From a virus: 64,000 nucleotides of DNA. The notes beneath the pieces were generated by a model. It did not search any database and was not told the origin of the DNA. It was given only the letters and a program-made list of their open reading frames with translations. Position numbers and translations under genes: made by a program. This document shows positions 4,998-63,638 of the stretch, piece after piece. Within the stretch, counting starts at the first letter, position 1, and each line of letters begins with the position of its first letter. The stretch is from IMG/VR virus record IMGVR_UViG_3300045988_076381; one strand, given 5' to 3'.

Positions 4998-5870
4998 ATG
5001 AGGAAAATATTTATTTTTATAACATTAATATCATTAGTATTTTTATTAACAAAATGTAATGGAGACATATATAAAAAGAATAAAAGTGAGTTAGTTAAAA
5101 CACTTTCTTCTATGGATTTATATACAGTTCCAGTGAAAGAAAATTTATCTACTATAGTAACATTCGGAAAGGATACTTTAGCGATAACTAATACTCCTAT
5201 AAATATATATATTCCAAATGTATTAAATAGATTTGATAGTCTTAAATTAGATACTATTGCTGTAGATACTAATAACTTATTTAGTCAATATGCTCAAACC
5301 ATATTATTTGAAGATATAGAGAGCAAAGATTATGATTTTAACGATCTTGTGATTTATATTAAAAATAAATGTAAGTATTTAAATAACAAAGATTACTTCT
5401 TGCAATCTATAGAAATCCAACCTATTGCTCTAGGAACTACACAGAATATAAAATTAGGATGTGTATTAAGTAACGGTTCTGAGTATATTATATCTAATAA
5501 TGTTAGAGAAGAGTTATTTAATAATCATAAAGGATATATAAATACAATATCAGGAAAAGGAAATATTAAATTTAAATCCTATTTAGCACTTGATAGTATT
5601 AGATTAAATAAAGACTCTAATCCATATATTGCTTGGTTCATTGAAATAAATAAAGCTAGATATTATTCAGTATGTTCAGAAATAGATTGTGAGGAATATA
5701 ATATGTTTGGAGATAGAGATATTCCATATGGACTAGTCTTTTATAATACTTTCATGTATTCGGAAGAAGGAAATCCTATATTTGAAGTATATAAGGACTT
5801 CTATCTTTGGAGAGATGGAAAAAGATCTTCAATAGGAGAATATTCTGATTCTAAATGCTATAGGTATTAA
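4998..5870 (+). CDS. secreted or lipoprotein-like LruC/DUF4842-domain protein
   Basis: Start at ATG 4998 gives the signal peptide MRKIFIFITLISLVFLLTKC. FEDIESKDYDFNDLVIY matches the remembered LruC/DUF4842 signature of Bacteroidota. The track start 4935 overlaps the upstream gene and was rejected. Confidence 0.65.
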   Translation: MRKIFIFITLISLVFLLTKCNGDIYKKNKSELVKTLSSMDLYTVPVKENLSTIVTFGKDTLAITNTPINIYIPNVLNRFDSLKLDTIAVDTNNLFSQYAQTILFEDIESKDYDFNDLVIYIKNKCKYLNNKDYFLQSIEIQPIALGTTQNIKLGCVLSNGSEYIISNNVREELFNNHKGYINTISGKGNIKFKSYLALDSIRLNKDSNPYIAWFIEINKARYYSVCSEIDCEEYNMFGDRDIPYGLVFYNTFMYSEEGNPIFEVYKDFYLWRDGKRSSIGEYSDSKCYRY

Positions 5871-5886
5871 AATATCATTTAAATAA

Positions 5887-6183
5887 ATGAAAGATTTATA
5901 TAACACTATAAATAAAATAATTAATAACAAATCTTTAAATTCTGAGGAAGCAACTAACTTAGTTCATATATATATTACAGAAGAGTTAGGAAAAGAACCA
6001 ACTTCCGAAGAACTTACAGAAGTATTAAAATTACTACAAAGAGGTATATTTGATTTTGAATATATGTTGGATATTATATTAAAGAAACCTCATGTATATG
6101 GATTATATACTTGTAGTATTTATTCTTCGTTAGATGAAAGTGGGAATAGAAAATTTATAAAAAGAACTCTTTATAGAAATTAG
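5887..6183 (+). CDS. hypothetical protein (98 aa)
   Basis: ORF in the co-directional string. No motif. Confidence 0.5.
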   Translation: MKDLYNTINKIINNKSLNSEEATNLVHIYITEELGKEPTSEELTEVLKLLQRGIFDFEYMLDIILKKPHVYGLYTCSIYSSLDESGNRKFIKRTLYRN

Positions 6184-6184
6184 A

Positions 6185-6352
6185 ATGGAAACCTATATTG
6201 ATTTTGATGAACCCTATACATCAGATGTATTTGATGATGTAGATCCTTTATTAGAAGTAGAAGAACTTCCGAAAGAAATTAGAAATGAGTTATTTAAAGA
6301 AATCGAAAAAGAATTTGAAGAGGAAGAAGAATCTGATTTATTAAAAGATTAA
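6185..6352 (+). CDS. small highly acidic protein (55 aa), not in the ORF track
   Basis: ATG 6185 to TAA 6350-6352 fills the gap between neighbours exactly: it starts 1 nt after the upstream stop and ends 2 nt before the next ATG. Product: METYIDFDEPYTSDVFDDVDPLLEVEELPKEIRNELFKEIEKEFEEEEESDLLKD. Confidence 0.55.
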   Translation: METYIDFDEPYTSDVFDDVDPLLEVEELPKEIRNELFKEIEKEFEEEEESDLLKD

Positions 6353-6354
6353 TT

Positions 6355-6567
6355 ATGAGAAATTTTAAAATTACTTTATCAACCGAAGAAATTATTTCGG
6401 AAGAAGAATTACTTGATATTATAAATTATTGTTATGATACTAATTATTTAACTTTTTCTGATATTCCCAAAGAATTGATAAAAGAATATATAATTAGCGA
6501 AATAGGAAGTATATTTTCTTTCGAAACCTCTAATATAGATATTAAAGAAGTATATTGTGAAGAATAA
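6355..6567 (+). CDS. hypothetical acidic protein (70 aa)
   Basis: ORF in the string. No motif. Confidence 0.5.
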   Translation: MRNFKITLSTEEIISEEELLDIINYCYDTNYLTFSDIPKELIKEYIISEIGSIFSFETSNIDIKEVYCEE

Positions 6568-6829
6568 ATATATTGATATTACTAGGGAAGATTGGATTAG
6601 TCTAATCTCCCTAGATAAAAATAATCCAATAAATAAAAAATTGGGAGCAAAATTTATTTGTCAAGAAGAAATTAAGAAGACGGAGGAAACTATTTTATAT
6701 AGAATATGTATAGAAGATATAAAATCAAAACGATTATTTTGTGTTAAATATATTCTATTTAAAGATTCCGAAGGAAAGCCTGACATAGCAATAAATACTG
6801 AATATACTGATAAATTATATAAAATCTAA
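6557..6829 (+). CDS. hypothetical protein (90 aa, GTG start)
   Basis: GTG start overlaps the upstream stop by 11 nt. There is no early in-frame ATG. Confidence 0.45.
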   Translation: MKNKYIDITREDWISLISLDKNNPINKKLGAKFICQEEIKKTEETILYRICIEDIKSKRLFCVKYILFKDSEGKPDIAINTEYTDKLYKI

Positions 6830-6833
6830 TAAA

Positions 6834-7880
6834 ATGCTTACATATTATTTAAGAAACTTCTGGCAGGATTGTAAAATAGATTCAATTCAAAAAATTCGAG
6901 AAGCTATTCCAAATATAGATGATGAAACACTTCTAGAAATTTTAGAAGGTAAAAAGAAAGCTGTAACTGAGGATGGTATAAATTTTACTATAGAAGATGA
7001 TCATGAGGAAGATAGAATGTATTTAAGTAGAGATAGTATACAAGAATCTTTTGAATACAAATTTAGGGATTTAGCTTCTCAGATTATGGGATATTCAAAA
7101 GGATTGTATCTTGATACAGATGAGGATAGAAAACATTATTACTCTCTTTTAAAAAATACTTTTGAGGAGATTCACGAATTAGAGAATAATTGGAAAGAGT
7201 TTTGTACTTTGATAAAATGTAATATAAATCTAAAAGTTAAAGATTATCTTTATGACGAAGAGTCTTTGGAAGCAGATAATGTTGATGTATTTAATTATGT
7301 CGAACATTTAGATTCTCCTAATAAAGCTTCTTCTTACAAGGACCTTGTTTCTGAATACCTATCCACACTAAACTTTAGTTTTAAATATGCTCTAGATTAT
7401 TTAATAGAAGAACGTGACTATCGAACTATAGAATTATTAAAATTAGATTCATCTAACGGATTAAATTATATCCCGGAGCATAAAAAAGCTCAATCTGAAT
7501 TAGATACTCTTAGAGGAGATAATATCTTTCCAGAAGATATTCTTGAATGTATATGGAATAGTGGTTGGTTATCTCCAAATGGAGAATTATATGGATGTCC
7601 AGATTATGATCATATAAATTTCTCTGATAGATTAGTTAAATATTTAAATTTATCAGGAACAAATTCTGATAGAATATTAGAAACTAATGGATATATTAAA
7701 TTCTCATGTGGAAGATGGTTATATATGGAGAAAGATTTTACTCCTACTATAGCCCAATTAGAAACAATTTTAAAATGGAATAAGGAAAAGAATAAGAGTC
7801 TTAAAATTTGTATTGGAGATGGATTATCAATGGTTAATGTAGATATTATAGAGTCTAAATTAAATTCTTTAAATAAATAA
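6834..7880 (+). CDS. hypothetical protein (348 aa)
   Basis: Long ORF in the string. No family recognised from memory. Confidence 0.6.
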   Translation: MLTYYLRNFWQDCKIDSIQKIREAIPNIDDETLLEILEGKKKAVTEDGINFTIEDDHEEDRMYLSRDSIQESFEYKFRDLASQIMGYSKGLYLDTDEDRKHYYSLLKNTFEEIHELENNWKEFCTLIKCNINLKVKDYLYDEESLEADNVDVFNYVEHLDSPNKASSYKDLVSEYLSTLNFSFKYALDYLIEERDYRTIELLKLDSSNGLNYIPEHKKAQSELDTLRGDNIFPEDILECIWNSGWLSPNGELYGCPDYDHINFSDRLVKYLNLSGTNSDRILETNGYIKFSCGRWLYMEKDFTPTIAQLETILKWNKEKNKSLKICIGDGLSMVNVDIIESKLNSLNK

Positions 7881-21230: not shown

Positions 21231-24200
21231 TTAACAATTTATAATAAGTTTTATTTTATTAAGCCTCATTAGATTATTTATAAGCTCGACTGTTTCAATA
21301 GTTTTGCTAGTCTTATTATTAATCTCTTTTAATTTATAGTTATAATTACTTCTTATTAAGTAATATCTTTCATCTCCTAGAAGATCCACTTCTTTAAATT
21401 TTTTATTCTTAGTATCTTTTCCTATTTGTTCTAAGAGCTGATATTTACCTAAATCTTCATTATATACCTTTACATATTTATTATTAGAAATTAATGCTTC
21501 AAAACTATCTCTAATTGAAGCCATTCTAAGAAGGATATCATCTATATTAACATCTTCCATAGTTACTTTATCACTCTTTGAATCATAAATTACTCCGGGA
21601 GTTATAGTATTTAAATCTAATCCTCCAATATATTTAAAGTAATCTACAATTAAACTTCCAGGATTAAATACTGATCCTTGTAATACTTTTAATATACTAT
21701 CTTGTCCTTTTCTCCCTTTATGAGTAATTAAATTATATATGAAAAATAAATCTGATAACTTGATCCCTCTAAATTCAACATTTTCAATTTCTCCAAATGC
21801 TGAAACTTGTTTATCAAATTCTGGATTATTTACAGTAGTAACCATATTTATAGATGGTCTGTAATATATATAATTAGATCCATCTAATTTAGAAGTATTA
21901 TCAGTTATAATTAATCCATTTAAAAATGCGTTATTAACTAACTGAGATCCAAAAGTCATTACTCCTTTAGAATTAATTGTATATCCACTCTTTAACATTG
22001 GAATTACATAAGATTCCATATATAATTTAAAGGATGCTAAACCATCATCATTAGATAAAGAATAAGATGTCTGCTCGGTAGCAGTAAGCATTTCCCCATT
22101 TAAGAAATAATTTTGGCCTTTAGGAACTGAAATAGATAAATTTTTATTTTTTAAATACTTCCTAATTATCAATTCATCTATATAATCTCTAATGATATTT
22201 AGTTGAGATTCAGATAGTTTATTAGGCATAGTAATTTTACCAATCCTCCTTCTCATTATTACGTTTTCTAAATTATCTATAATAGAGTTTGATAATGCAT
22301 ATTTAACACTTCCTAATTTAGAATTTTGTTCATTTATATAATAAGCATTAATAAATGCTTTATAATGCGGAAGAGAATCTATTAAATCAAATACATTTAT
22401 TACAGACTTTATTAAATTATAGAATTTAATAACAGATTCAGCATAATCAGGTTGTTCTAAAAATTTAGTTAAATCAAATTTCATACTAGAAAAAGTTCCA
22501 TTTGAAGACATTTTATCTAGAGCATCTCCAACTATAGAAGATAATTCTTGATCTGTATATATATTCCCAATATTAGGGTTATATTCTTTTAATGCCCCAA
22601 TAAAATAATCAGCTGTATCTCCGGTTAATTGAAGTTTATCTAATCCATTCTGAATTAATGTATTAAAGGACTTGCTGAAATTATATCTATCATATTGTTT
22701 AGTCTTTATACCTCCATTAATTCCTAAAATTTGACCTAACGTAGCTATTTCTTTTGCTCCAGTGTAAGCTTTTACAAAGGTAGTAAAATTTGTTTTAGAT
22801 TTTACTGATGAATTAAACAAATCTTTTAAATCTTTAAATTTCCTCACTTGTTTAAAATATCTAATTAATCCCTGCACTACTTCCTCAGAAGATCTAACTA
22901 ATGCTAATTCATCCCACTCTGACATAGAATCTAAGAATGTTAAAGCATACTCTTCATCAAGAAATCTTTCATTAACAAAATTATATTTAGTAGTTTCAAG
23001 ATCATTTATAATTTCGTTTATATCATTTGATGTTAGTTCATTAAGTTTAAATGCGGAGATTATCTTAGAATTATATAATGTATTTAAATATAATGAAACA
23101 GATTTTACATATCCTTTTCCAATAAAATTTGTAAGTGATGGTCCTTTTTCTATATTTCTTAATGTGGAATCTATAGTAGCGTATTGATCATACATTCTAT
23201 TAACTGTAGCTGCTTGAACTATAGCATTAACCTCTGAACTAGTCATAAGATCTGAGATATTATCAAATGATAAGCCTTGGATTAATAAATATACATATAC
23301 TCCAGCCAGGTCAGGACCAGCGTTAATCTTTGATAAGATCAATTCTTTAGCATTGTCAGTAGCAGCTGAGATTAAACTTGAGATAACGAGAGATTTGTCT
23401 TCTTGAAATCTATTTTGTGTAAGATCTATTGCATCATTCACACTAATACTTTTATCTCTAGCCTCATTTAAAAGATCATATACAAACTCAATATCATCAA
23501 GATTAATGTTAGCCAAACTATTTGTGAATAATTTAACGAGTTCCCCATCACTCTTCCCTTCATTTCCAGGAATATTTTTATAAATCTCAAAAACATTATT
23601 AAAATATAAATTTGATTTTAATAAATCTTCTACAGTTAATCCTTTTTCAGCTAATTTTCTTATCTCCTGATTAAAGTACTGAGTTGCAGCTAAAAATACC
23701 TTTTGTCCTACAGCACTTATACCGATAACTTCCTTCCCTGCCATATTCTCGAAGAATAAGTTCCATTTAACAGATGGACAGAAATCTGTAACCGTTTTAG
23801 CATAAGCTCCAGCCTCAGATTTAGCAGCAGCAGCTTGTGGGTCTCCCATACTAATAGGTGATTCGGCAGCTACAAGATTCTTAAAGTTATCAGAGATTTG
23901 ATAGATTTTATTATATACAAAATTCTTTGTAGCGGATAAAAGTTTATTTGGACTTATTTCTTTAAGATGTCTAGATATATCAATATCTAAATTCTCTATC
24001 ATATTTGATATAAGTATTCTGGCACTTTCTATATCCTCATTCCTTGATTTATCATCTGAATTTTCTTTTATATAATTTAGATCATTAACTAAATCAGGAT
24101 TATAATATAATTGTATATTAGTTTGTTTGAATCTATCTACCTTATTTAAAACATCTACAGCTAATTTTAATCTAGTATTATCCCCATCATATTCTCCGTT

Positions 24201-24395
24201 TAAGATAGATAAGATTTCAGGAGTTATATCTATATAAGGTATTTCCGGATTTATTTCAGAAGTTATTGTATATTTTAAATCTGAATTTGGAAATGGTAAT
24301 TGTTTTGAGAGTTCAAATGATTCATTATCTCTATAATTAAATAACGATGACCATGCTTCATAAATTCCATTTTTATTTATTAAAGGCATTGTCAT
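21231..24395 (-). CDS. giant protein segment (1054 aa as annotated); probable 3' exon of a spliced gene
   Basis: Long ORF whose frame stays open for 12 codons upstream of its ATG (back to TGA 24434-24432), immediately downstream of two group I intron cores. Confidence 0.75.
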   Translation of the reverse strand: MTMPLINKNGIYEAWSSLFNYRDNESFELSKQLPFPNSDLKYTITSEINPEIPYIDITPEILSILNGEYDGDNTRLKLAVDVLNKVDRFKQTNIQLYYNPDLVNDLNYIKENSDDKSRNEDIESARILISNMIENLDIDISRHLKEISPNKLLSATKNFVYNKIYQISDNFKNLVAAESPISMGDPQAAAAKSEAGAYAKTVTDFCPSVKWNLFFENMAGKEVIGISAVGQKVFLAATQYFNQEIRKLAEKGLTVEDLLKSNLYFNNVFEIYKNIPGNEGKSDGELVKLFTNSLANINLDDIEFVYDLLNEARDKSISVNDAIDLTQNRFQEDKSLVISSLISAATDNAKELILSKINAGPDLAGVYVYLLIQGLSFDNISDLMTSSEVNAIVQAATVNRMYDQYATIDSTLRNIEKGPSLTNFIGKGYVKSVSLYLNTLYNSKIISAFKLNELTSNDINEIINDLETTKYNFVNERFLDEEYALTFLDSMSEWDELALVRSSEEVVQGLIRYFKQVRKFKDLKDLFNSSVKSKTNFTTFVKAYTGAKEIATLGQILGINGGIKTKQYDRYNFSKSFNTLIQNGLDKLQLTGDTADYFIGALKEYNPNIGNIYTDQELSSIVGDALDKMSSNGTFSSMKFDLTKFLEQPDYAESVIKFYNLIKSVINVFDLIDSLPHYKAFINAYYINEQNSKLGSVKYALSNSIIDNLENVIMRRRIGKITMPNKLSESQLNIIRDYIDELIIRKYLKNKNLSISVPKGQNYFLNGEMLTATEQTSYSLSNDDGLASFKLYMESYVIPMLKSGYTINSKGVMTFGSQLVNNAFLNGLIITDNTSKLDGSNYIYYRPSINMVTTVNNPEFDKQVSAFGEIENVEFRGIKLSDLFFIYNLITHKGRKGQDSILKVLQGSVFNPGSLIVDYFKYIGGLDLNTITPGVIYDSKSDKVTMEDVNIDDILLRMASIRDSFEALISNNKYVKVYNEDLGKYQLLEQIGKDTKNKKFKEVDLLGDERYYLIRSNYNYKLKEINNKTSKTIETVELINNLMRLNKIKLIINC

Positions 24396-24413
24396 GTAGA
24401 CTTTATCAATATC

Positions 24414-24731
24414 CGTTTGACCTTTATATTTTCATATAAAGACTGACTATATCATCACTTTTAAAGTGCCTCCCGCTTCGGATTATTTAAATCCTACTCT
24501 ACTAAGTTCTATTTAAATATTAAATAGCTTTTCGATAGTCGATGAACTCTTCTCTTATATAAGAGACTTAGCTGCGGATTACCCAATCTTAATACTTTTT
24601 ACTATACTGAGGTAATTACTCTCACCATTTAAATATTACTATCTAAACTTAGTATATTAAGCTCTAAGGGATTTCCCGCAATTCAAGAGGTTTAATGACT
24701 ACAATATAACCTATAGTCCGATCCTTGGCTG
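24414..24731 (-). ncRNA. group I (IA-like) intron core, copy 2 (boundaries approximate)
   Basis: Core elements P AAUUGCGGGAAA (24683-24672), Q AAUCCGCAGC (24580-24571), R GUUCAUCGACUAU (24547-24535), S AUGAUAUAGUC (24455-24445). Helices P4 UGCGGG/UCCGCA, P6 UCUCUUAU/AUAAGAGA, P7 GACUAU/AUAGUC, P7.1 CUAUUUA/UAAAUAG, P7.2 GGAUU/AAUCC, P3 CCUCUU/GGGAGG, P8 CACUU/AAGUG, P9 CUUUAUAU/AUAUAAAG. Confidence 0.8.
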
Positions 24732-24734
24732 AGA

Positions 24735-24976
24735 CTTATTATCTTATAACTGTTTATGTTATAATTCTATGATTTCATTTTGTTATATTCATAGTTTAGA
24801 CTATATCTTCATGAATTACTCATGTTGGATGCTCGTGGGAGAGATTATTGTTAGGCTCACTCTCCTAGTCGTTGAACCTTCTAGATTCTTTTAACCTAAA
24901 TCTAGCTCGGCTGCTGATTGTCCACTTCTGGAGTTCCCAGCAATTCTTCCAATTTTATATGACCCCTAAGTATTTA
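24735..24976 (-). ncRNA. group I (IA-like) intron core, copy 1 (boundaries approximate)
   Basis: Core elements P AAUUGCUGGGAA (24945-24934), Q AAUCAGCAGCC (24919-24909), R GUUCAACGACUAGG (24877-24864), S AAGAUAUAGUC (24809-24799). Helices P1 AUAUGGCU/GGUCAUAU, P3 UUGGA/UCCAA, P4 UGCUGG/UCAGCA, P5 UCCA/UGGA, P6 CUAGAUU/AAUCUAG, P7 GACUA/UAGUC, P7.1 GGAGAG/CUCUCC, P8 CAUGA/UCAUG, P9 CUAUGA/UCAUAG. Confidence 0.8.
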
Positions 24977-27900
24977 AGCCATATCTGATACAGATTAACA
25001 TAAGCTTCATTACTTTCTGCATCAGAGAATCCTACTACATCCATTGTCATAATAGACTGAAATGCTTGTGCAGGAATACGATTCGCTGTTATTTTTAAAC
25101 TCTCAATAAATGATCTATATATCTTCTTAGAATCTCTTTCGATTCTTCTATTTATATAATCATCATATTCATCTTTTATCTCTTCTATACTACTATTATT
25201 TATAGCTAATTCTTCTCCTAATCTCGAATCTGTCATATTTATATAATCTCTTAACTCTTTAATATTATCAGAATTAAAATTATACCATATTCCTATATAC
25301 TCATCAGAAGAATTAAATACATTAACTAAATTCCCTAAATTAGAAGGATCTACAACAATCACTTCTTGAACTATTCCATTACTAGTATCCTGATAAAAAT
25401 GAAGTCCAGATGTTTTATATACAGCTTCTCCATTTTCATTTAATCTCCATTCTTCTCCATCTATAACTTCTGTTAATATTTCCAGTGGAGTTAGTGAAGA
25501 TATATAATTTTCAGAACTAGGCTTATTTATAATAATTCTAGTATTATCTAAACTATTCTTTAGAAATTCTATATCATTAGGAAGAGGATCAGATTTAGCT
25601 TTATTATATGTTCTTAATAATTTCTGTCTAAAGTACTCCCCATTACTATTAATAATATTCGCAATATTATCTCCAGTTCGTAATCCGAATATAGATTGAT
25701 ATACCTTAGATATTACAGCCTGTGCTCTTTTTATATTTAAATCATGTATTCTTACTCCTTGAAGTCCTCCGACAAATTCTATTATATCATTGTTATCTAT
25801 AATCATTTGATATTCAGGCATTCTCGGATCTAATAACATAATATTTTCATCCAATAATCCAATATATCTATTAACAAACTGTTGAAGTGCTAGAATTTCC
25901 TCTTTAGATGCTTTAGACTCTCTTAATCTAAACATATCTTCGATTATCGGATGGTCATAAATATTATATTTCTTATTTATCCCATCAATACTCCAAGTAG
26001 CTCTAAAAGGTTGAAGTTCTTTTCTGATTCCTTTTAAATTAGTTACTGTAGTATTTAAATTCCTATAATGTTTAAATTTATCATAAGTATTTATATCCAC
26101 CTGTTCTCCAGTAGTAGGATCTAATACAATATCACCAAATTCTATTAAATCCGTAGATATTTCCTGTGTTAAATTTCCTGTTTCTAAATATCTATCTAAA
26201 CCTGATCTAAGAATATTTCCATTTTCATCAGTAAGAGAATAATAACCAGCTTCATTAGCTATATGTATTAAATCTTCCTGAGAATAATATCCTCTTAAAA
26301 CATTTCCATTAGAATCAAATAAATTCTCAGATCCATCAAAATAATAATGTTTTATAGATCCATAAGAAGGAATCATTACAGCTCCCATACCAGAGAAAGT
26401 TCTTTTAATACTATCAGAGTTCATTTTAGATGCTAACATAGTTATAAAAGAACTATTTATACTTCCGGAACTAAACGGAATTTTAAATCTTAAATCTCTA
26501 GCATTAAATAATTCATTATTTAAATTCTCCTCAAACTCTCTTGCAGCTTCTTCCAAATAACCAGTAATTACTCCATCTCCAGAGCTTCCTTCGAAGGCTT
26601 TAATAGTTGCTTTAGCTAGAAGTTTATATAATAATGTTTTATTAGCTTCTCCTAATTCTGTAAGAGTTTCTAAGTTATTAGCTTGATTATGCGCTTCAAA
26701 ATACTTCTTTAAAGTAGTATTTACTACAGAACCTAAAGCTCTATAAGCCGCATCAGCTAAATCTGATGTATATCCATTAGCTGCTAAAGTACTAATAATC
26801 TGAGTAGATTCAGTAACAGTAGATAAATCAGCATGGTGATCTGCATCCATTTGAATACCCACGAATTGTGTACCAACTCTACCATAGGATAAAGGAGTAT
26901 CATCGTATCTAGCATTGGCTGGATTTGTATTAAACGCTCCAACTTTTATTGATGTTCCATTTGCTAGGTAATGTATATCAGAGTATTTAAGAGGTTGATA
27001 TATATAATTCTGATCTAGTATTACTCTTAATTTTCTTTGTTCGTCTAATATATAACTAGAATCTTCTGGAATATTGTTAAATGTAAATGGAAGATCTTGT
27101 TTAGATATAATTGTATTTAATAAATCTAAATCACCATTAACCATATTTAATAGATCCCTCTTAGTTATATAATATCCGGTTTTATTCATAAACTGTACTG
27201 TAGCATTTACAGAAGCCTCTCCTTTATCTCCGGAATTACTTAAATAAGGATCTAAAGGATTAGAATTATCTAATGAATAAGAATACTCTCCACCTAGAGC
27301 TTTCCATAATTTATAATTACTATCTATTACTACAGTTCTTGTTACATTTCTACTATTCTGAGTATCTCCCCCGTTATTATTAACTCTTCGTTCTATAATA
27401 TTATAAGTATTATTTCCTAGAGATTCTAAATCAATTATTCTATAATATTCTCCATTATTCGCATTATAATAATATAAATCCTCGGATATAATATCTCTAA
27501 GATGACGTTTATTACCATTAAAATCTTGCATTAAATTAATAATAGGAACATCCCATTTTCTATCAGTCATTTTTTGCAACAATTTAACTTTCTCCGGAGA
27601 TTTTCTCATTCGATAATTAGTTATAGAGAATATAGCACATTTCATTAATAACCCATTACCAAATTCAAGATCTACATTATATCCAAAATTCTTTCTATTA
27701 TATCCAGCACTAGAGCTAAACATTGAATTGTTCTCTAACACATTTTGAAATGGATTACATTCCATAGAGCCATCTAATACCTTTACATTATCAGTCTCCC
27801 CAGAAGGATTAAATACAGGAGCTTCTATATCTTTGATAATTGCTACATTTATAGTTGGAGTTGTTCCTTCTAATGCTTTTTGATAATAGTTGTGTATAGT

Positions 27901-30900
27901 AGCCTGCATAGCAACCATACGTTTATATTGAGCTAATAATCTATTAGCATGATCCCGGATAAAATATTCCGGATTTATAGATCCATCGGAATTTAAATAA
28001 TACACGCCTCTTAATTTAGAAGGATGTGCATAAGGTTCACCTACACTTACTTGAAGGAATTGATTAGATAAGAACCCATCCAAAAAGAAATATTTTTCTA
28101 ATATAGGATTTAATTTCCCATCTTTTTCTAATAACATCATTCCATCTCTGCCAATCCAATTTTTTAGAGAAGGAATATCTTTTAAGAATTTAAATACTTT
28201 GGTATCTACTTCAATACCTTTAGATTTTAAATCCTTTTTAAATATCTCTTTTGATCTATTTATAAAATCCTTGTAATAAGAATTATCTGTAGTAGATACT
28301 TGATAGATATTAGCCATATTTTCTATAAATGGATTTAATCTAAATACACTATTACCTTTAGACATTTCCACTTTAGAATAATGAACTTCTTCTATAAATT
28401 TAAAATTAGGATCTTCTAAACTTAATTCTCTAGCTATTTGAGAGACTTCCTTCCATCTAGTAGATAAGAGATTATTTATTGCGATGATATTATTATTTAT
28501 AATCTCAGCTTTTTCTTTCTTATTTTTAATTTTAGATATAGAATCTAATAAAGAAACACCTAATCTTTCACCTATTCTATAATAAGATTTAAATAAATTT
28601 GATAATAGATTAGTATAATAAATCTGTTGGCTATTAAAATTCTCTACTTCGATCTGAGTAGCAGATGCAGATTTAATATTCTTCCCATCAAATTTAATAT
28701 CCTTAGATATTTTAATAAGAGATTGATTAGATTTATCTGCGTATACAGTTGGAAGAAATTCTATATAATTAATTTGATCATTCATTAGATTTTTGAAATA
28801 ATCTAATATTATAGATGATACTCCGTACTCAGAAACATTGAATTTATTCTTTTGTACTGTTGTTCCATTTGGAGATATAAATTCTGTTTTTAATCCAATT
28901 CCTTTTAAATATTCTGGATTATTATAGAATATATTAGATTCGAATATATTAGATATATTAGAATGCTTTCTAACATTATTCTGATAATCTCTAGTAGTAT
29001 ATATAAACTCGTGTATGTTTTTAACTAAATTCATCAATCCTATAGATGGCACATTATCTCCATCAGAGTTTTTATATGTACTTGGACTAGCTTCTCTATT
29101 TAATAAATTTATGGAACTAACTGCGGCTTTAAATACACTTGATCTATCTCCTTTAGAATTTAAATTAACCTTTAATCTTGGTCTAGTTTTACTTGATGTA
29201 AAGAATTTATTAAAAGTAATATCCTTCATTGTTTTAAATTCTGGAAAGGATTTTTTTACTTTAGATTTAAATTCTCCTGGAGTAAGATTAACTTTATTAG
29301 AATCATATTCTTTATATATAGAATCTAGAGTATCAATTGTTTTAAGTGTTCTATATAATAATCCCAAAAGATCTCCTTTTAGATTAGATTCGGCTTCCGT
29401 TCTATATTGTGATTTTAATATAGAATATAATTGCCCAGAACTATTTATAAATGGAAGATCTGTAGATAATTGTAACAATTCTAACAACCTAAATCCATTC
29501 ATAATAGATTCTGATAAAGTTTTACCATTTATAATCGCACTAACTTGTTCTGGATTTGGGATTGTAATACTATCTAATAATTCTTTATTTAAATCTTTTC
29601 CAGTTATAGCATCTTCGTTAGCAATATTTAAATGATCATTAATAAATAATGTTCTAGATCCAATGGTGATAGAAATAGAATCATCTAAGACCTTAACTCT
29701 AAATTTATTTCGTAATACATTTAAAATAGTATTATCATAATCACCATTTCTAGCTATAGAATCAACATATTCAGTTAAATTTCTTTCCTGTCTAAATAAA
29801 GAGGATTCATAAGTTAGATTTGAGAATGTATTTACTTCATACTCTTTACTTTCTGAATTATATTCATATGATATATATTCTGATCCATCCTGTTTATTCA
29901 TATAAGCTAAGACATCCAAGAAATAGTTAAAACTTAAATCTCCTTGGTTATCTTTAATTATATTATATAAAGATTTAGCTTCTGGAGTAGAGTCAAAGAT
30001 GTATTTATATATAGACAATAATGCCTTTTTAGTATCTAAATTAAAGTCTAAATTCTTCTTAAATTTATTTATTTTTGATGGATCAGTTTTTCCATCTGTA
30101 ACAAATAAAGAATTAAAAAATTCTATATAAGCTACTGTAGGATTTAATTTACCTAATTTTAATGAATTATATTTATTAGAAGATTTAATAACAGGATCTC
30201 CGATTCTAGATATAGCATTGTTAAATTCATTAACTGTCATATAAGATATCTCATCCCATTTCCCATCAGAATCTAATAAAGGAATATTTTGTATAATAGC
30301 TTTAGTTAAACTAGTAGTCTCTCTATTTATATCGGAATCTTCATTAACTCTAAAATGTTGTCTTAATGCATTTTTAGTGAACGGAAGATATTTAATTTCA
30401 TTTCTATTAGTAGATTTAATTCCTAATTTAAATGGATCTATTGAAATTAATCCGTCTGTTAATAATACTATTAAATTATCAAAATTCTCTAAAGTCACTA
30501 AAGCGTTATATGCATTTAAATAATCTTGATTAGATTTAGATAAAGGAGTGTATAGAACATTATTAATCGAATTTAATTTTGATGTAGGATTATGTTGATC
30601 ATAATATTCATTTAATCTAGATATAATAGTAGTAAATTCTGTAATATTAAAAGATCCATCCTGATTATATAAAGGAATAATATCTTTTTCTCCTAAAAAT
30701 TTTGTTATATGATTAAATAATATTTGTTTATATTCTGCAATATTATTATTTAATTCTGAATAAGTTCGAACAATTTTTCCAGAATCTAGATTTAGAAAGG
30801 AATTTTTAAATATCTCCCTTTTAAATGTAGAAACAAATCTATTATATAAACTATTATTATTTTGAAATTTAGTAATTAAATCTCTATTAGTCTTTATTTC

Positions 30901-31338
30901 TTCATTATAGGTAACGTTTTTTCTACTTCTATTTAATTGTTCTACATATTCTTTCGTAGCTAAATCTCTATCCTCCTCCGTCACAGATTCATCTTCTTCT
31001 ATAGTCTTTACTTCATTCTCTAATGTAGTTACTAGAGGATCTGGATTTTTATATTCTTCCGGAGGTAAAGTTTTTTCTATATTCTTAGTTAAAATTTTAT
31101 CTAAGGAATTATTAAGTATTGTATTTAATTCCGTATTATAGGAAAATAATCTTATATATTCCTTTATTGCATCTACTAAATTTTCATCAGAATCAATGAT
31201 AAAATCTTTTTGCAGAGAATTTTTAATATTCTGAAATTGTTGATCTGAAATAGTATCTCCCTGAAAATTAATCCAGGGAGATAGATTTATTAAAAATTCT
31301 GGGCTTCTAGTGTTTGAATCAAAAAATTTACAAGCCAT
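24955..31338 (-). CDS. giant virion-block protein (2127 aa from MACKFF start); probable 5' exon of a spliced gene
   Basis: Uninterrupted 6.4-kb ORF. Its last ~7 codons and stop lie inside the predicted P1/P2 region of intron copy 1. The size is similar to crAss-like virion RNA polymerases, but no catalytic motif could be assigned confidently. Confidence 0.8.
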   Translation of the reverse strand: MACKFFDSNTRSPEFLINLSPWINFQGDTISDQQFQNIKNSLQKDFIIDSDENLVDAIKEYIRLFSYNTELNTILNNSLDKILTKNIEKTLPPEEYKNPDPLVTTLENEVKTIEEDESVTEEDRDLATKEYVEQLNRSRKNVTYNEEIKTNRDLITKFQNNNSLYNRFVSTFKREIFKNSFLNLDSGKIVRTYSELNNNIAEYKQILFNHITKFLGEKDIIPLYNQDGSFNITEFTTIISRLNEYYDQHNPTSKLNSINNVLYTPLSKSNQDYLNAYNALVTLENFDNLIVLLTDGLISIDPFKLGIKSTNRNEIKYLPFTKNALRQHFRVNEDSDINRETTSLTKAIIQNIPLLDSDGKWDEISYMTVNEFNNAISRIGDPVIKSSNKYNSLKLGKLNPTVAYIEFFNSLFVTDGKTDPSKINKFKKNLDFNLDTKKALLSIYKYIFDSTPEAKSLYNIIKDNQGDLSFNYFLDVLAYMNKQDGSEYISYEYNSESKEYEVNTFSNLTYESSLFRQERNLTEYVDSIARNGDYDNTILNVLRNKFRVKVLDDSISITIGSRTLFINDHLNIANEDAITGKDLNKELLDSITIPNPEQVSAIINGKTLSESIMNGFRLLELLQLSTDLPFINSSGQLYSILKSQYRTEAESNLKGDLLGLLYRTLKTIDTLDSIYKEYDSNKVNLTPGEFKSKVKKSFPEFKTMKDITFNKFFTSSKTRPRLKVNLNSKGDRSSVFKAAVSSINLLNREASPSTYKNSDGDNVPSIGLMNLVKNIHEFIYTTRDYQNNVRKHSNISNIFESNIFYNNPEYLKGIGLKTEFISPNGTTVQKNKFNVSEYGVSSIILDYFKNLMNDQINYIEFLPTVYADKSNQSLIKISKDIKFDGKNIKSASATQIEVENFNSQQIYYTNLLSNLFKSYYRIGERLGVSLLDSISKIKNKKEKAEIINNNIIAINNLLSTRWKEVSQIARELSLEDPNFKFIEEVHYSKVEMSKGNSVFRLNPFIENMANIYQVSTTDNSYYKDFINRSKEIFKKDLKSKGIEVDTKVFKFLKDIPSLKNWIGRDGMMLLEKDGKLNPILEKYFFLDGFLSNQFLQVSVGEPYAHPSKLRGVYYLNSDGSINPEYFIRDHANRLLAQYKRMVAMQATIHNYYQKALEGTTPTINVAIIKDIEAPVFNPSGETDNVKVLDGSMECNPFQNVLENNSMFSSSAGYNRKNFGYNVDLEFGNGLLMKCAIFSITNYRMRKSPEKVKLLQKMTDRKWDVPIINLMQDFNGNKRHLRDIISEDLYYYNANNGEYYRIIDLESLGNNTYNIIERRVNNNGGDTQNSRNVTRTVVIDSNYKLWKALGGEYSYSLDNSNPLDPYLSNSGDKGEASVNATVQFMNKTGYYITKRDLLNMVNGDLDLLNTIISKQDLPFTFNNIPEDSSYILDEQRKLRVILDQNYIYQPLKYSDIHYLANGTSIKVGAFNTNPANARYDDTPLSYGRVGTQFVGIQMDADHHADLSTVTESTQIISTLAANGYTSDLADAAYRALGSVVNTTLKKYFEAHNQANNLETLTELGEANKTLLYKLLAKATIKAFEGSSGDGVITGYLEEAAREFEENLNNELFNARDLRFKIPFSSGSINSSFITMLASKMNSDSIKRTFSGMGAVMIPSYGSIKHYYFDGSENLFDSNGNVLRGYYSQEDLIHIANEAGYYSLTDENGNILRSGLDRYLETGNLTQEISTDLIEFGDIVLDPTTGEQVDINTYDKFKHYRNLNTTVTNLKGIRKELQPFRATWSIDGINKKYNIYDHPIIEDMFRLRESKASKEEILALQQFVNRYIGLLDENIMLLDPRMPEYQMIIDNNDIIEFVGGLQGVRIHDLNIKRAQAVISKVYQSIFGLRTGDNIANIINSNGEYFRQKLLRTYNKAKSDPLPNDIEFLKNSLDNTRIIINKPSSENYISSLTPLEILTEVIDGEEWRLNENGEAVYKTSGLHFYQDTSNGIVQEVIVVDPSNLGNLVNVFNSSDEYIGIWYNFNSDNIKELRDYINMTDSRLGEELAINNSSIEEIKDEYDDYINRRIERDSKKIYRSFIESLKITANRIPAQAFQSIMTMDVVGFSDAESNEAYVNLYQIWLKYLGVI

Positions 31339-31340
31339 AT

Positions 31341-34300
31341 TTAACAAATATTATATTTACTTCTTATCTTATTTATATCAGATAGTATTGTTTGTATATT
31401 CATATTAGATAAAATTAAATTTACTGTATCAGGGATGATTTCAGATTTAGTTATATAATCCACTAGTAAGTTATTGCTATCATAAGTTAATAACACTTTT
31501 GTTATATTTCTTAATATTTCTAAATCTTTAGGATCTGATACTACATCAAACATTTTTCCAAATGCTTGTGACAAAGATATAATATTTTTATCAGAATTAC
31601 TATCTTCTCTTACTAAATTTTCTTTATTCCTAGAATAGATGTTTAGAGAATCTTTTTCAAAGTTATAGTCTATATAATCCACTTCTGTTGTAGAATCTAA
31701 ACTAATAGATTCTGATTTAAGACGATTATTTACTAATCCTAAAATATTTCTTATATCTTCTGAGATAGAAGTTTCCGAACGTCTAGCAGGATTAGTGAGA
31801 ATAGATCCAATTGAATCATCTATAAGATCATTTAGATCATTATTACTAGTATTTAATTTACGTCCTATTTCTGCTCCTAATATTTCTAATGTATTTATAG
31901 GAGCTTCTGATTTGGTTTCTACTTCTGGTTTAATTCTTTCAACTCTAGCAATGCCAAAATTAGTAGGATCAGCTAAATCTCTAGAAGGTTGGAATACGAA
32001 TTGTGGGGTTTGAATATCTCTATCTATATAATACTGCCCCTCAGGATTTCTTGCTTCGTAAAAATATTCTCCTCCAGTATAATCGGTTTTCTTATCTGTT
32101 AATTCATAAACTGGAAATGGAAAAATTCCATTTTTAAATAAAGGATTATAATTAGGAGCTTCTACAGAATTAATACTTCCATCAGGCTGTTTATAATTTC
32201 TTCTTCCCAACATAGCAAATTCCATAAAATCAATTATATCTAAATCAGTAATTCCATCTTCTTTATTCCAATCCTGAAATATTCCACCATTCTCTTCATT
32301 TATAATTGGAGAAGAAACTAATAATTCAGGATGTAACCTTTGATTTATCTTAAACTCTATAATTTTATTTATAAATTTAAGTACATCATTTCCGTTAATA
32401 GTAGAAGAATAATTTTCCATCTTTTTTATCTCTTCTGGAGTAGTTTCCATATGTAACCTCTCCATTATTCTTAGGATATGAGGTAATCCAAATTTAACTT
32501 TAGAACCAGGAAGATCAAATGGATTTTCCGCATTTCCTTCTTTGGCAGCAAGTGCTGATAGAGAATTAAGTAACTTTTCAGCAATTTTTATGTGCTTAGA
32601 TTCCGGCTTTCCAGTAGTTTTTAGGTAATTATAATAATTATATATAGATAGTAATGTATCAAATCCTATAAAATCTCCAAAGTAAGATTTATAAAATTTA
32701 CCATTATATTTAGCTACTCCAGAATTCTTTTTATATGAATTTATAAATTCTCTATATTTAGATATAAAGGATTGGAATGTTTGTCCTTCCGGATTTAAAA
32801 TGATCATTCTAATTTTATCTCTTCTATCTAGATCATTATCATATTTTCCATTCATTTGGTCTATGTAATAATCTCCATACTGATCTTCTGAGATAATATT
32901 ATCATCCTCATCAAATATATATTTACTATGTGTAGCAAATACTACTGCTTTGCCTTTGATATTATTCTTATTTATTTCAGCATTTAATCTCTCAGATTTA
33001 GATTTTAATATAGGTTCTAATCTAGATTTTTGAGTAGTATCTGCTTTATTATATTCCTCTAAAGTTTCATAATAATCATTATATAGAGTATTTAATCTCT
33101 CGTTACGTTGAATTAATAACTCATTCCGATTAGATTTACCGTATCTAGTATTAGTTACTATATAAGGTTTGGAGAAGTAAATTCCTCTAAATTCAGATTC
33201 TTTAGATTCAAATGGAACATGTGCAAATTTTTTCTTATCTGATCCTTTATATATAATACTATTAGTAATTCGTTCTAATTCGAAATCATCTCTAAGCTGG
33301 AAATATTTATTAGATTTTCCACTTTCATCCAAAATGAAACTATTCATTATTTGTCCATAGAATTTTTGATATTCTACAAACCATGCTTTAGAAGCTCTTT
33401 GTTCTGGAGTATCAGAATCTTTAATTCTAAAAGATTCATTATTAATATTTGGTAATTCTACTATATAAAGCTCTACAGTATTCTCTTCTGTAGAAGAATT
33501 TAATATAGGAATTTCATATATAATTCTAATAACAGAATCTTCTTTTCCTATAGATTTATTAAAATATTTAGTTGCTTTTAATACAAACTTCCCGTTAGAT
33601 AAATCTAATGTTCCAGTATTTCCAGATATGTCATTATATAAATTAGATAAATCTTGTTCAATATTATAATCTTTAAATAATTTATTTCTTCTGGATTTTG
33701 TGTAATTATATAATATACTCTTTACTTCTAATATCTTTTCATCAACTCTTTCGAATTGTGTAGGATTTAAGCCATCAATTTCTCCATTAAAGAATGCTCT
33801 ATGTTCACTATTTGAATCTAATCTTAGCATTATAGCGGAATCTTTAATGCTATAAGTAGTTATATCACCATTAATTTCTGCTTTAGGTTTAATTCTTGTT
33901 CTATAAGAATAACATATAAAACTATCAGGAGAATGTTTCTCTGTTTTAGATTCTATTCTTTCTAATTGTTGAATTTCTCTATTAGCTTCTGGAGAATCAC
34001 TAAATGCAGCATCTAAAACTTTTCCTAATTCTACATTAGGTTGGGGTGTTGAGACTGATGTAGTAGAAGATTCTTTCTTTTGAGGTTCTATAGTTTTATT
34101 CTCTAACGAAGCATTAAGAGCTTTCAATCTTAATTCTGAGAAAGATTTAGCAGCTTCATTATTTAATATAGAGGATTGTGTATAACTAATTCTTTCAGAT
34201 CCTTTAGTAAGTTTAGTAGTTAACCCATTATTTATAATAATAGTACCTTCTTTAGATCTAGTTATAGCAGTATATAAATCTCTAGTAGCTTTTTCTACAA

Positions 34301-62954: not shown

Positions 62955-63638
62955 TTAAGCTTTAGCTACTTGATCATTTGGTAGGTTAGGTGCGGCTAAA
63001 CTCCTATACCACCGTACCTTTTTTTCTGTGATTCTTCTTTTAATATCATTAGTCAAGAAGTTCATATTAGATACCTCTTCTGCATTACAACAAGTAAATT
63101 GTTCTAATTGTCTAGGATCTTTAAATACGGCTATTATAGATAATGTTTTAATCAACGGAGCATTAAATATATAACAATCATACATCCCATTTTCATTAGG
63201 TGCTGTATCTATATAAATATAAGGCTTTCTTCCTAACCACCTATTATATTTATGATACTGATAAGATATATCAGTATAAATTTTAAATGGAGTATTTCTA
63301 TCAACAGTTCCGAAATACTGAATTGCATCAACTCCTAAATCTGTAACAATTTGAGGTATTTCTACATGAGGAATATTAGTCTCTCTAACATTTAAATTAG
63401 AATTACATAAATTACAATTCTCTATAGGTTTACAATCTACCTCTAAACAATTAATAGATGTAACTAAATCCTTAACTGGAAGAAGTCCTTTTAAAGCGTA
63501 TTCTTTTATTATAGTTAATCTCTCATCTACTATATCATCTTCTAACTGTTCAACAGATAAGGATATATTAGATGTAATACCTCTTAATCCTGATAAAATA
63601 TCGTTTAAAATCGCAGAGGCTAATTTATTTAATTCCAT
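62955..63638 (-). CDS. virion-module protein (227 aa)
   Basis: First gene after the strong terminator at about 63653-63693. No motif. Confidence 0.6.
   Translation of the reverse strand: MELNKLASAILNDILSGLRGITSNISLSVEQLEDDIVDERLTIIKEYALKGLLPVKDLVTSINCLEVDCKPIENCNLCNSNLNVRETNIPHVEIPQIVTDLGVDAIQYFGTVDRNTPFKIYTDISYQYHKYNRWLGRKPYIYIDTAPNENGMYDCYIFNAPLIKTLSIIAVFKDPRQLEQFTCCNAEEVSNMNFLTNDIKRRITEKKVRWYRSLAAPNLPNDQVAKA

What the first reader, a model, noticed from the sequence alone, without database searches (positions are those of the whole stretch)
24735..24976. Group IA intron core (copy 1) begins inside the last codons of the 2130-aa giant ORF
Read on the - strand, the RNA carries matches to all four classical group I core elements in canonical order. 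These are P AAUUGCUGGGAA, Q AAUCAGCAGCC, R GUUCAACGACUAGG and S AAGAUAUAGUC. The consensus forms I remember are AAUUGCGGGAAA, AAUCCGCAGC, GUUCAACGACUAGA and AAGAUAUAGUCC. Every expected helix can be drawn: P3 UUGGA/UCCAA, P4 UGCUGG/UCAGCA, P5 UCCA-GAAG-UGGA, P6 CUAGAUU/AAUCUAG, P7 GACUA/UAGUC and P8 CAUGA/UCAUG. There is also an extra hairpin between P7 and P3' (GGAGAG/CUCUCC), which is the P7.1 hallmark of subgroup IA phage introns, plus P9 CUAUGA/UCAUAG and UUAUAAC/GUUAUAA. A P1 helix AUAUGGCU/GGUCAUAU with a terminal U.G wobble places the 5' splice site after U24977 or U24976. On that model the annotated C-terminus (L)KYLGVI-stop of the 2130-aa ORF is intron sequence.
Basis: partly seen in the sequence, partly recalled or inferred. 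Interest (0 to 1): 0.75.

Follow-up and report, generated by a model that had tools for sequence, protein, structure and literature searches.

The report
Two introns splitting a phage gene
This is a real 248-base self-splicing (group I) intron, one of two sitting 16 bases apart inside the most conserved motif of a giant gut-phage gene; it is a well-documented example of a known kind of element, not a new kind.

Summary
Rfam's group I intron model hits window 25012..24780 (-) at 64.8 bits (threshold 50, E 3.6e-14). A second hit lies directly downstream at 24741..24423 (62.2 bits).

Intron-free alleles in related phage contigs and a 1,159-representative protein family fix the boundaries:
- exon 1 ends at U24977
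- a 16-nt micro-exon lies at 24728..24713
- intron 2 is 24712..24414
- exon 3 starts at 24413

Splicing joins the "2130-aa" and "1054-aa" ORFs into one 3189-aa protein. The junction reads IWLQGSDYDIDK, the family's commonest motif, with three invariant Asp.

Structure is backed by covariation: 7 double changes against one relative, and 41 of 61 pairs across 18 family members. Intron 1 is absent from genomes 98-99% identical in the flanks, so it was gained or lost recently. It carries no endonuclease ORF.

Group I introns are already reported at high density in crAss-like gut phages, so this is a new member of a known kind. Splicing itself is untested. The host protein's identity as an RNA polymerase is inferred, not shown.

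The parts
24977..31347 (-). Exon 1 of the giant gene. Its last bases are ...CAG ATA TGG CU, the first two bases of a Leu codon.
   Evidence: ORF 24955..31347. Identity to the intron-1-free relative L003 runs at 97.6% up to window 24979. The splice model is in frame.
24729..24976 (-). Group I intron 1 (248 nt), with no ORF and a final G at 24729.
   Evidence: Rfam 64.8 bits. Own model R1 scores 324.6 bits. Covariation. Boundaries. No ORF longer than 41 aa.
24957..24984 (-). P1 hairpin: exon AUAUGGCU (24984..24977) pairs with the internal guide GGUCAUAU (24964..24957). U24977.G24964 is the splice-site wobble pair. The ORF's UAA stop (24957..24955) starts on the last base of P1.
   Evidence: Sequence. 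8 of 8 pairs in the window and L007. Recovered by the free-energy fold.
24825..24952 (-). P3 (24952..24948 with 24829..24825), which encloses: P4 (24942..24937 / 24917..24912); P5 (24932..24929 / 24924..24921, GAAG loop); P6 and P6a (24910..24899 / 24887..24877); the 5' strand of P7 (24870..24866); and P7.1 (24865..24860 / 24843..24838).
   Evidence: Helix positions. In the 18-sequence alignment, all 5 P3 pairs, 6 of 7 pairs of the long P6 stem (P6a) and 6 of 6 P7.1 pairs show changes on both sides. P4, P5, the 2-bp base of P6 and P7 never vary.
24744..24824 (-). P8 (24824..24820 / 24814..24810), the 3' strand of P7, UAGUC (24803..24799), P9 (24794..24789 / 24772..24767) and P9.1 (24764..24758 / 24750..24744).
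   Evidence: Pairs with changes on both sides: P8 5 of 5, P9 5 of 6, P9.1 7 of 7.
24713..24728 (-). 16-nt micro-exon CCAAGGAUCGGACUAU. With the CU from exon 1 it encodes L-Q-G-S-D-Y, including the first Asp of the triad.
   Evidence: Intron-free alleles read CTT CAA GGA AGT GAC TAT at this spot. Of 10,976 U/G boundary combinations, only 2 recreate the family motif, and both use 24729, 24713 and 24414.
24414..24712 (-). Group I intron 2 (299 nt), with no ORF. P1 is GACUAU/GUAGUC and the final G is at 24414.
   Evidence: Rfam 62.2 bits. Homologous introns sit at the same DY|DID site in L001, L003, L004 and L007. P1 co-varies with the exon codons.
21231..24413 (-). Exon 3, starting GAU AUU GAU (D-I-D), which carries the second and third Asp of the triad.
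   Evidence: The motif WLQGSDYDID is found in 28 family representatives.

Best explanation
Window 24976..24729 (minus strand) is a compact group I ribozyme intron without an ORF, of IA-like architecture. It interrupts a roughly 9.6-kb phage gene inside a Leu codon (CU|C), 16 nt upstream of a second group I intron (24712..24414). The transcript is expected to fold into P1-P9.1. Guanosine would attack after U24977, and the freed exon end would attack after G24729, joining exon 1 to the 16-nt micro-exon. Intron 2 would likewise join the micro-exon to exon 3. Only the doubly spliced mRNA encodes the 3189-aa protein with the invariant motif WLQGSDYDIDK. Unspliced RNA yields a 2130-aa product that ends ...IWLKYLGVI and lacks the Asp triad. 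The intron is, or recently was, mobile. The RNA architecture, the boundaries, the restored frame and motif, and the presence/absence polymorphism are shown here. Catalysis, the order of splicing and the route of mobility are inferred.
For: 1. The Rfam group I model scores above threshold, E 3.6e-14.

2. Compared with the 87%-identical homologue in L007, all 61 pairs are kept and 7 have changes on both sides, against 0-2 in the slid controls.

3. Across 18 family members, 96.5% of cells are paired, and 41 of 61 pairs have changes on both sides against 10-17 in the slid controls. No shuffle of 500 reaches the observed value.

4. The spliced coding sequence is 9570 nt, in frame, with one terminal stop.

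5. The junction peptide IWLQGSDYDIDK matches intron-free homologues. P0003 reads AYLQGSDYDIDK and MT835492 reads AWLQGADYDIDK. It also contains WLQGSDYDID, the commonest form of the motif in a family of 1,159 representatives that are mostly 3000-3700 aa long. G, D, D and D are invariant in that family.

6. Only 2 of 10,976 boundary combinations recreate the motif.

7. L004, L006, L010 and L003 lack intron 1, yet the flanks are 98.7% identical (L004 against the intron-bearing L007) and 97.6% identical (L003 against the window).

8. Related introns sit in other phage genes, including the annotated split dUTPase of crAss-like phage cr50_1.
Against: There is no experimental or RNA-level evidence of splicing. 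P4, P5 and P7 never vary in my alignment, partly because the relatives were retrieved with a 23-mer that covers P5 and the 3' strand of P4. That alignment was also fitted to the model, so it leans towards the structure. P10 (CCAAGG with CUUAGG) has an A.A mismatch in the window. P1 of intron 2 has only 6 bp here, against 9 bp in relatives. There is no endonuclease gene, so current mobility is not explained directly.
Confidence: 0.88

Rival explanations
1. The ribozyme is an inactive relic. The two ORFs are made as separate polypeptides of 2130 aa and 1054 aa that work as a split protein.
For: Gene callers report two ORFs. ORF 2 has its own AUG at 24395. Many family members in databases end at ...LQGSDY.
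Against: Compensatory changes keep every helix between the window and L007. The micro-exon keeps the codons QGSDY in frame although it lies in no ORF. The invariant Asp triad would be split, with its first Asp untranslated. Uninterrupted homologues are the norm.
Confidence: 0.05
2. The two ribozymes act as one unit. The 5' site of intron 1 is joined to the 3' site of intron 2, and the micro-exon is skipped.
For: [quoted passage not shown]
Against: Skipping 16 nt shifts the frame: CU+GAUAUUGAUAAAGUCUACAUGA runs into UGA within 8 codons (sequence). It would also delete the first Asp. Skipping could occur as a by-product but cannot give the functional protein.
Confidence: 0.03
3. The intron ends at G24735, or at G24743, so the exon between the introns differs from my model.
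For: A model with a 3-nt exon UCU (final Gs at 24735 and 24421) is also in frame.
Against: That model gives IWLLQTDIDK, which loses the invariant G and the first Asp. Intron-free alleles and the L007 allele place the exon at CCAAGG... directly after a G. See also the enumeration.
Confidence: 0.02

Closest known systems
Group I catalytic introns (Rfam RF00028), phage IA-type such as T4 td/nrdB/sunY (comparison from general knowledge)
   Same: P/Q/R/S core, P3-P9 order, a U.G pair at the 5' splice site, a terminal G, an extra hairpin between P7 and P3', and insertion in a highly conserved coding site of a phage gene.
   Different: Very compact at 248 nt, with no P2 and no endonuclease ORF. It lies 16 nt from a second intron. 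No subgroup-specific test was run here.
Group I introns of crAss-like gut phages (Yutin et al. 2021, PMC7886860); the split dUTPase with an 'intron-encoded HNH endonuclease' in phage cr50_1 (MT774375)
   Same: The same intron sequence family: 68% identity over 90% of intron 1. The same ecological setting, human gut phage contigs. That paper reports a high density of group I introns and shows a LAGLIDADG intron endonuclease in the transcription gene block.
   Different: Those introns were found through their endonuclease domains. This one has no ORF and would be missed that way. The site (within a Leu codon just before QGSDYDID) and the tandem arrangement are not described in the text I read.
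Phage Twort orf142: three group I introns in one gene, with exon skipping (Landthaler & Shub 1999, cited in PMC11878797)
   Same: Several self-splicing introns close together in one phage gene, so correct expression needs several independent splicing events.
   Different: Here the internal exon is 16 nt and encodes part of a catalytic motif, and skipping it shifts the frame. I did not read the Twort paper, so exon sizes are not compared.
Homologous introns at the neighbouring sites of the same motif in relatives (L001/MT835470 and L005)
   Same: The same gene and the same 10-codon motif. L001 has an intron-2 homologue at DY|DID that carries a LAGLIDADG ORF (Pfam E 2.3e-26). L005 has a LAGLIDADG-ORF intron at GS|DY.
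   Different: Intron 1 occupies a third and rarer site. None of the 16 truncated family representatives ends at W-L. It has no ORF.

Membership tests
Group I intron (RF00028) | Covariance-model score at or above the curated gathering score | tested here: met
   64.8 bits against 50, full-length match to model positions 1-253.
Group I intron (RF00028) | Conserved core helices P3-P8 in canonical order, including the P3/P7 pseudoknot, supported by covariation | tested here: met
   61 pairs are 100% paired in the window. P3, the long P6 stem, P7.1, P8, P9 and P9.1 co-vary. P4, P5, the 2-bp base of P6 and P7 never vary, which says nothing either way.
Group I intron (RF00028) | 5' splice site after a U that forms a U.G pair in P1 with an internal guide sequence; 3' terminal G | tested here: met
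   U24977.G24964 closes the 8-bp P1. G24729 precedes the exon in both intron-bearing alleles.
Group I intron (RF00028) | Removal restores a continuous, conserved host reading frame | tested here: met
   The 9570-nt spliced coding sequence is in frame. The junction matches the family motif and the intron-free alleles.
Group I intron (RF00028) | Guanosine-dependent self-splicing | not testable with these tools
   Needs in vitro transcription with GTP and Mg2+, or RNA data.
Subgroup IA | Extra P7.1 (and P7.2) element between P7 and P3' | tested here: met
   GGAGAG/CUCUCC at 24865..24860 / 24843..24838. All 6 pairs show changes on both sides across the family.
Subgroup IA | The remaining subgroup-specific features (P2, joining-segment lengths, peripheral contacts) | not tested
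   No subgroup models were at hand. No P2 is apparent between P1 and P3.
Mobile (homing) group I intron | Intron-encoded homing endonuclease | tested here: not met
   No ORF longer than 41 aa lies in 24414..24976. Relatives of the family do carry ORFs.
Mobile (homing) group I intron | Presence/absence polymorphism at one site among closely related genomes | tested here: met
   L004 (without) against L007: flanks 98.7% and 97.4% identical. L003 (without) against the window: upstream exon 97.6% identical.
crAss-like phage virion RNA polymerase (DxDxD-bearing giant protein) | Invariant DxDxD motif in a giant protein within a block of giant genes | tested here: met
   D116, D118 and D120 are invariant in 24 sequences. 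The gene sits in a block of ORFs of 1524, 624, 2935, 3189, 1356 and 1490 aa.
crAss-like phage virion RNA polymerase (DxDxD-bearing giant protein) | Detectable homology to a solved or annotated RNA polymerase | tested here: inconclusive
   Pfam, PHROGs and PDB sequence and profile searches found nothing. Foldseek on a model with pLDDT 78.7 gave no significant PDB hit and only uncharacterised viral hits.

The most novel reading that the evidence does not exclude
The pair of ORF-less ribozymes may be more than passive parasites. They flank a 16-nt exon that carries the first catalytic Asp, and skipping that exon shifts the frame, so the full-length enzyme needs two precise splicing events. This could act as a kinetic or conditional gate on its synthesis. 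Alternatively, three different intron sites within one 10-codon motif could mark an arms race between co-infecting phages. In that case, occupying a site and recoding the flanking exon (Ser AGT to TCN) would protect against a rival's endonuclease.
Probability: 0.12. Interest if true: 0.6.

Novelty: new member of a known kind. Interest (0 to 1): 0.45.

Why it matters
Practical consequence: the "2130-aa" and "1054-aa" genes are one 3189-aa gene, and the annotated C-terminus is intron sequence. ORF-based annotation of these gut phages therefore cuts their largest conserved protein at its most conserved motif. About 1 in 10 of the best 150 family representatives are cut at this motif.

Biological interest: this is a clean natural case in which one catalytic motif is assembled from three exons, one only 16 nt long. 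Three alternative intron sites are used within ten codons, and gain or loss has been recent among near-identical genomes. That makes it good material for studying intron homing and co-conversion in uncultured phages.

It also shows that ORF-less introns, which endonuclease-domain searches cannot see, add to the intron load already reported for crAss-like phages.

Tried and rejected
1. It was in frame. I rejected it because it gives IWLLQTDIDK, which loses the invariant Gly and first Asp, and because it contradicts the intron-free alleles.

2. The megablast search of the region against GenBank phages found no match. Only two unannotated records at about 30% amino-acid identity turned up by tblastn.

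3. Attempts to identify the host protein all failed. These were Pfam and PHROGs on the ORFs, PHROGs on 23 family fragments, phmmer and two profile searches against PDB sequences, and Foldseek against PDB and BFVD. None gave a significant named hit.

4. The first AlphaFold model, built from 6 sequences, was unusable at pLDDT 39.

5. Rfam at the gathering threshold missed the ORF-containing introns in L001, L003 and L005. These were recognised by alignment instead.

6. Scanning the whole window at E<=1 gave no further intron, and there are no tRNA genes.

Full report

A scan of the whole 64-kb window against all 4227 Rfam families gives exactly two matches above curated thresholds, both to RF00028 (group I intron). 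One is at 25012..24780 (64.8 bits, E 3.6e-14). The other lies directly downstream at 24741..24423 (62.2 bits, E 2.2e-13); the gathering score is 50. A permissive scan at E<=1 adds only a sub-threshold S15 hit elsewhere.

An unconstrained minimum-energy fold of the intron recovers P1, P4/P5, P6, P7.1, P8, P9 and P9.1 (z = -2.15). The feature is real and not a chance match.

**2. Setting**

The two hits lie between a 2130-aa ORF (24955..31347, -) and a 1054-aa ORF (21231..24395, -). Both sit in a run of giant minus-strand ORFs of 1524, 624, 2935, 2130, 1054, 1356 and 1490 aa. Elsewhere the window encodes a Dda-like helicase, a DNA ligase, a thymidylate synthase, an endolysin and a virion structural protein, so this is a phage.

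No close relative is in GenBank phages. IMG/VR holds identical or near-identical stretches on contigs of 82-167 kb. The nearest GenBank relatives are two unannotated human-faecal phage scaffolds. Weaker protein links go to the crAss-like phage cr50_1 and to Flavobacterium phages.

**3. Boundaries**

My first model had a 3-nt exon between the introns. It was in frame but gave IWLLQTDIDK at the junction. Homologues showed that this was wrong:
- MT835492 (L002) has no intron here and reads TAG as a sense codon. It reads ...HFQAWLQGADYDIDKAYV.
- MT835470 (L001) has one intron, carrying a LAGLIDADG ORF (Pfam E 2.3e-26). It sits between ...WLQGSDY and DIDKAYI.
- Logan contigs L004, L006 and L010 (about 82% nucleotide identity) and L003 (about 89%) read ...TGGCTT CAA GGA AGT GAC TAT, followed by the intron-2 homologue. 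They lack intron 1.
- L007 and L008 carry both introns and read ...ATATGGCT|TGAG...ATAAG|CCAAGGATCTGACTAT|AGAT....

The boundaries in the window are therefore:
- exon 1 ends at U24977
- intron 1 is 24976..24729
- the micro-exon is 24728..24713 (CCAAGGAUCGGACUAU)
- intron 2 is 24712..24414
- exon 3 starts at 24413

The spliced coding sequence is 9570 nt, in frame, and encodes 3189 aa with ...NLYQIWLQGSDYDIDKVYM... at the junction.

I enumerated all 10,976 combinations of U-ending and G-ending boundaries in the region. Of these, 2,015 are in frame, but only two recreate the family motif. Both use G24729, U24713 and G24414. The one using U24977 gives the exact motif, and the other inserts three residues and ignores P1.

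**4. Is it one gene?**

A profile search of 1.84 billion representative proteins finds 1,159 relatives. Most are 3000-3700 aa long, with the motif near residue 2100. WLQGSDYDID is the commonest form of the motif, found in 28 representatives. The Gly and the three Asp are invariant in a 24-sequence alignment.

Sixteen of the best 150 representatives have their match to the profile end at this motif. The tails printed for these show most stopping at ...LQGSDY and two at ...LQGS, so the site is often interrupted.

**5. RNA structure**

I wrote the helices as P1, P3-P9 and P9.1, with P7 as a pseudoknot.
- Against the 87%-identical L007 copy, all 61 pairs hold and 7 have changes on both sides (P3, P6 x2, P7.1 x2, P9, P9.1). 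The slid controls give 0-2.
- A 23-mer from P5 and the 3' strand of P4 retrieved 56 IMG/VR loci. A model built from the two sequences aligned 18 distinct family members.
- In that alignment 96.5% of cells are paired. 41 of 61 pairs show changes on both sides, against 10-17 in the slid controls. No shuffle of 500 reaches the observed value.

Three caveats apply. The alignment was fitted to the model. P4 and P5 could not vary, because of how the relatives were retrieved. The P1 columns of distant members are uncertain.

Intron 2's P1 gives independent support for the micro-exon. The exon and guide strands change together: AGUGACUAU/GUAGUCACU in L004, UCUGACUAU/GUAGUCAGA in L007 and AGUGACUUU/GAAGUCACU in L003.

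**6. Mobility**

L004 (no intron 1) and L007 (with intron 1) are 98.7% identical over 3378 nt upstream and 97.4% identical over 5391 nt downstream. The window and L003 are 97.6% identical over 3621 nt, up to two bases before the splice site. Intron 1 was therefore gained or lost recently.

It has no ORF longer than 41 aa. Intron-bearing alleles use Ser TCG or TCT where intron-free alleles use AGT. That fits co-conversion of flanking exon sequence, or selection for pairing in P1 of intron 2.

Because the introns are 16 bp apart, a double-strand break made by a neighbouring intron's endonuclease could carry intron 1 along. LAGLIDADG ORFs occur in the L001 and L005 introns at adjacent sites. This route is an inference.

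**7. Mechanism**

The expected mechanism is standard two-step group I splicing at each intron. P10 of intron 1 uses the first six bases of the micro-exon (CCAAGG with CUUAGG, one A.A mismatch; a perfect CCAAG/CUUGG in L007). P1 of intron 2 uses the last six bases (GACUAU/GUAGUC). The two demands do not overlap.

Skipping the micro-exon would shift the frame. Unspliced RNA terminates seven codons into the intron, at a UAA that starts on the last base of P1.

**8. Comparison with known elements**

Yutin et al. 2021 (PMC7886860) report a high density of group I introns and inteins in Delta and Zeta crAss-like gut phages. They also describe a "transcription gene block" of giant proteins, one with a DxDxD motif, and a LAGLIDADG intron endonuclease drawn in that block. 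Their introns were found through endonuclease domains.

Intron 1 is 68% identical over 90% of its length to the region of crAss-like phage cr50_1 where the dUTPase gene is split by an annotated "intron-encoded HNH endonuclease". The element is therefore a new, ORF-less member of a known family in a known setting.

I could not confirm that the host protein is the RNA polymerase. Sequence, profile and fold searches all came back empty. I treat that identity as an inference, at about 0.6, resting on the invariant DxDxD, the gene block and the literature.

**9. Verdict**

Novelty is modest. The interesting details are:
- the micro-exon, which carries one catalytic Asp
- three alternative intron sites within ten codons across relatives
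- recent gain or loss of the intron
- the consequence for annotation: two "genes" are really one

Noticed in passing
L011:4645-4891, L013:5919-6162, L015:9588-9855(-), L025:3173-3438(-), L043:6548-6834(-), L057:4828-5048, L058:7648-7905: In ORF-bearing relatives of intron 1, an endonuclease-like ORF sits in the P1/P2 loop. Its last codons read straight through the ribozyme core P3-P6. The conserved DNA GAATTGCTGG..CCAGAAGTGGACAATCAGCAGCC is translated as ...ELLE(N/T)PEVDNQQPS, so this stretch may be under both RNA and protein constraint. From the flanking peptides, the host genes look like a DNA polymerase (L058), dUTPase (L025, L043), a helicase (L015, L035) and an anaerobic ribonucleotide reductase (L014, L057). 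These host genes were not checked against any profile library.
   Followed up: partly
window 24414-24712 (-): The second group I intron (Rfam 62.2 bits) sits at DY|DID. This is the commonly occupied site of the motif in the family. Its P1 co-varies with the Ser and Tyr codons of the micro-exon in relatives.
   Followed up: partly
L003:5034-6519, L004:5036-5334, L007:4995-5292: Close relatives carry a further group I intron at ...SLISAATD|NAKE..., with a LAGLIDADG ORF in L003. The window lacks it; its sequence is continuous there.
   Followed up: partly
L005:2504-3976 and L009: A third insertion site in the same motif (WLQGS|DYDID) is occupied by an intron carrying a 356-aa LAGLIDADG ORF with faint helix-turn-helix hits.
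   Followed up: partly
L002 (MT835492) 5701-7200: The homologous gene contains many in-frame TAG codons at positions where relatives have Gln or other residues, so this relative appears to read TAG as a sense codon. The window uses the standard code in this gene.
   Followed up: partly
window 12690-46600 (-): A continuous block of six giant genes totals about 11,100 aa after joining the split gene. None has a Pfam or PHROG family above threshold. The only weak matches are an AAA_19 hit in the 2935-aa ORF and an exonuclease hit in the 1490-aa ORF.
   Followed up: no
window 63324-63408 (-): A sub-threshold Rfam match to the ribosomal S15 leader (23.2 bits against 39.5, E 0.39), probably chance.
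   Followed up: no
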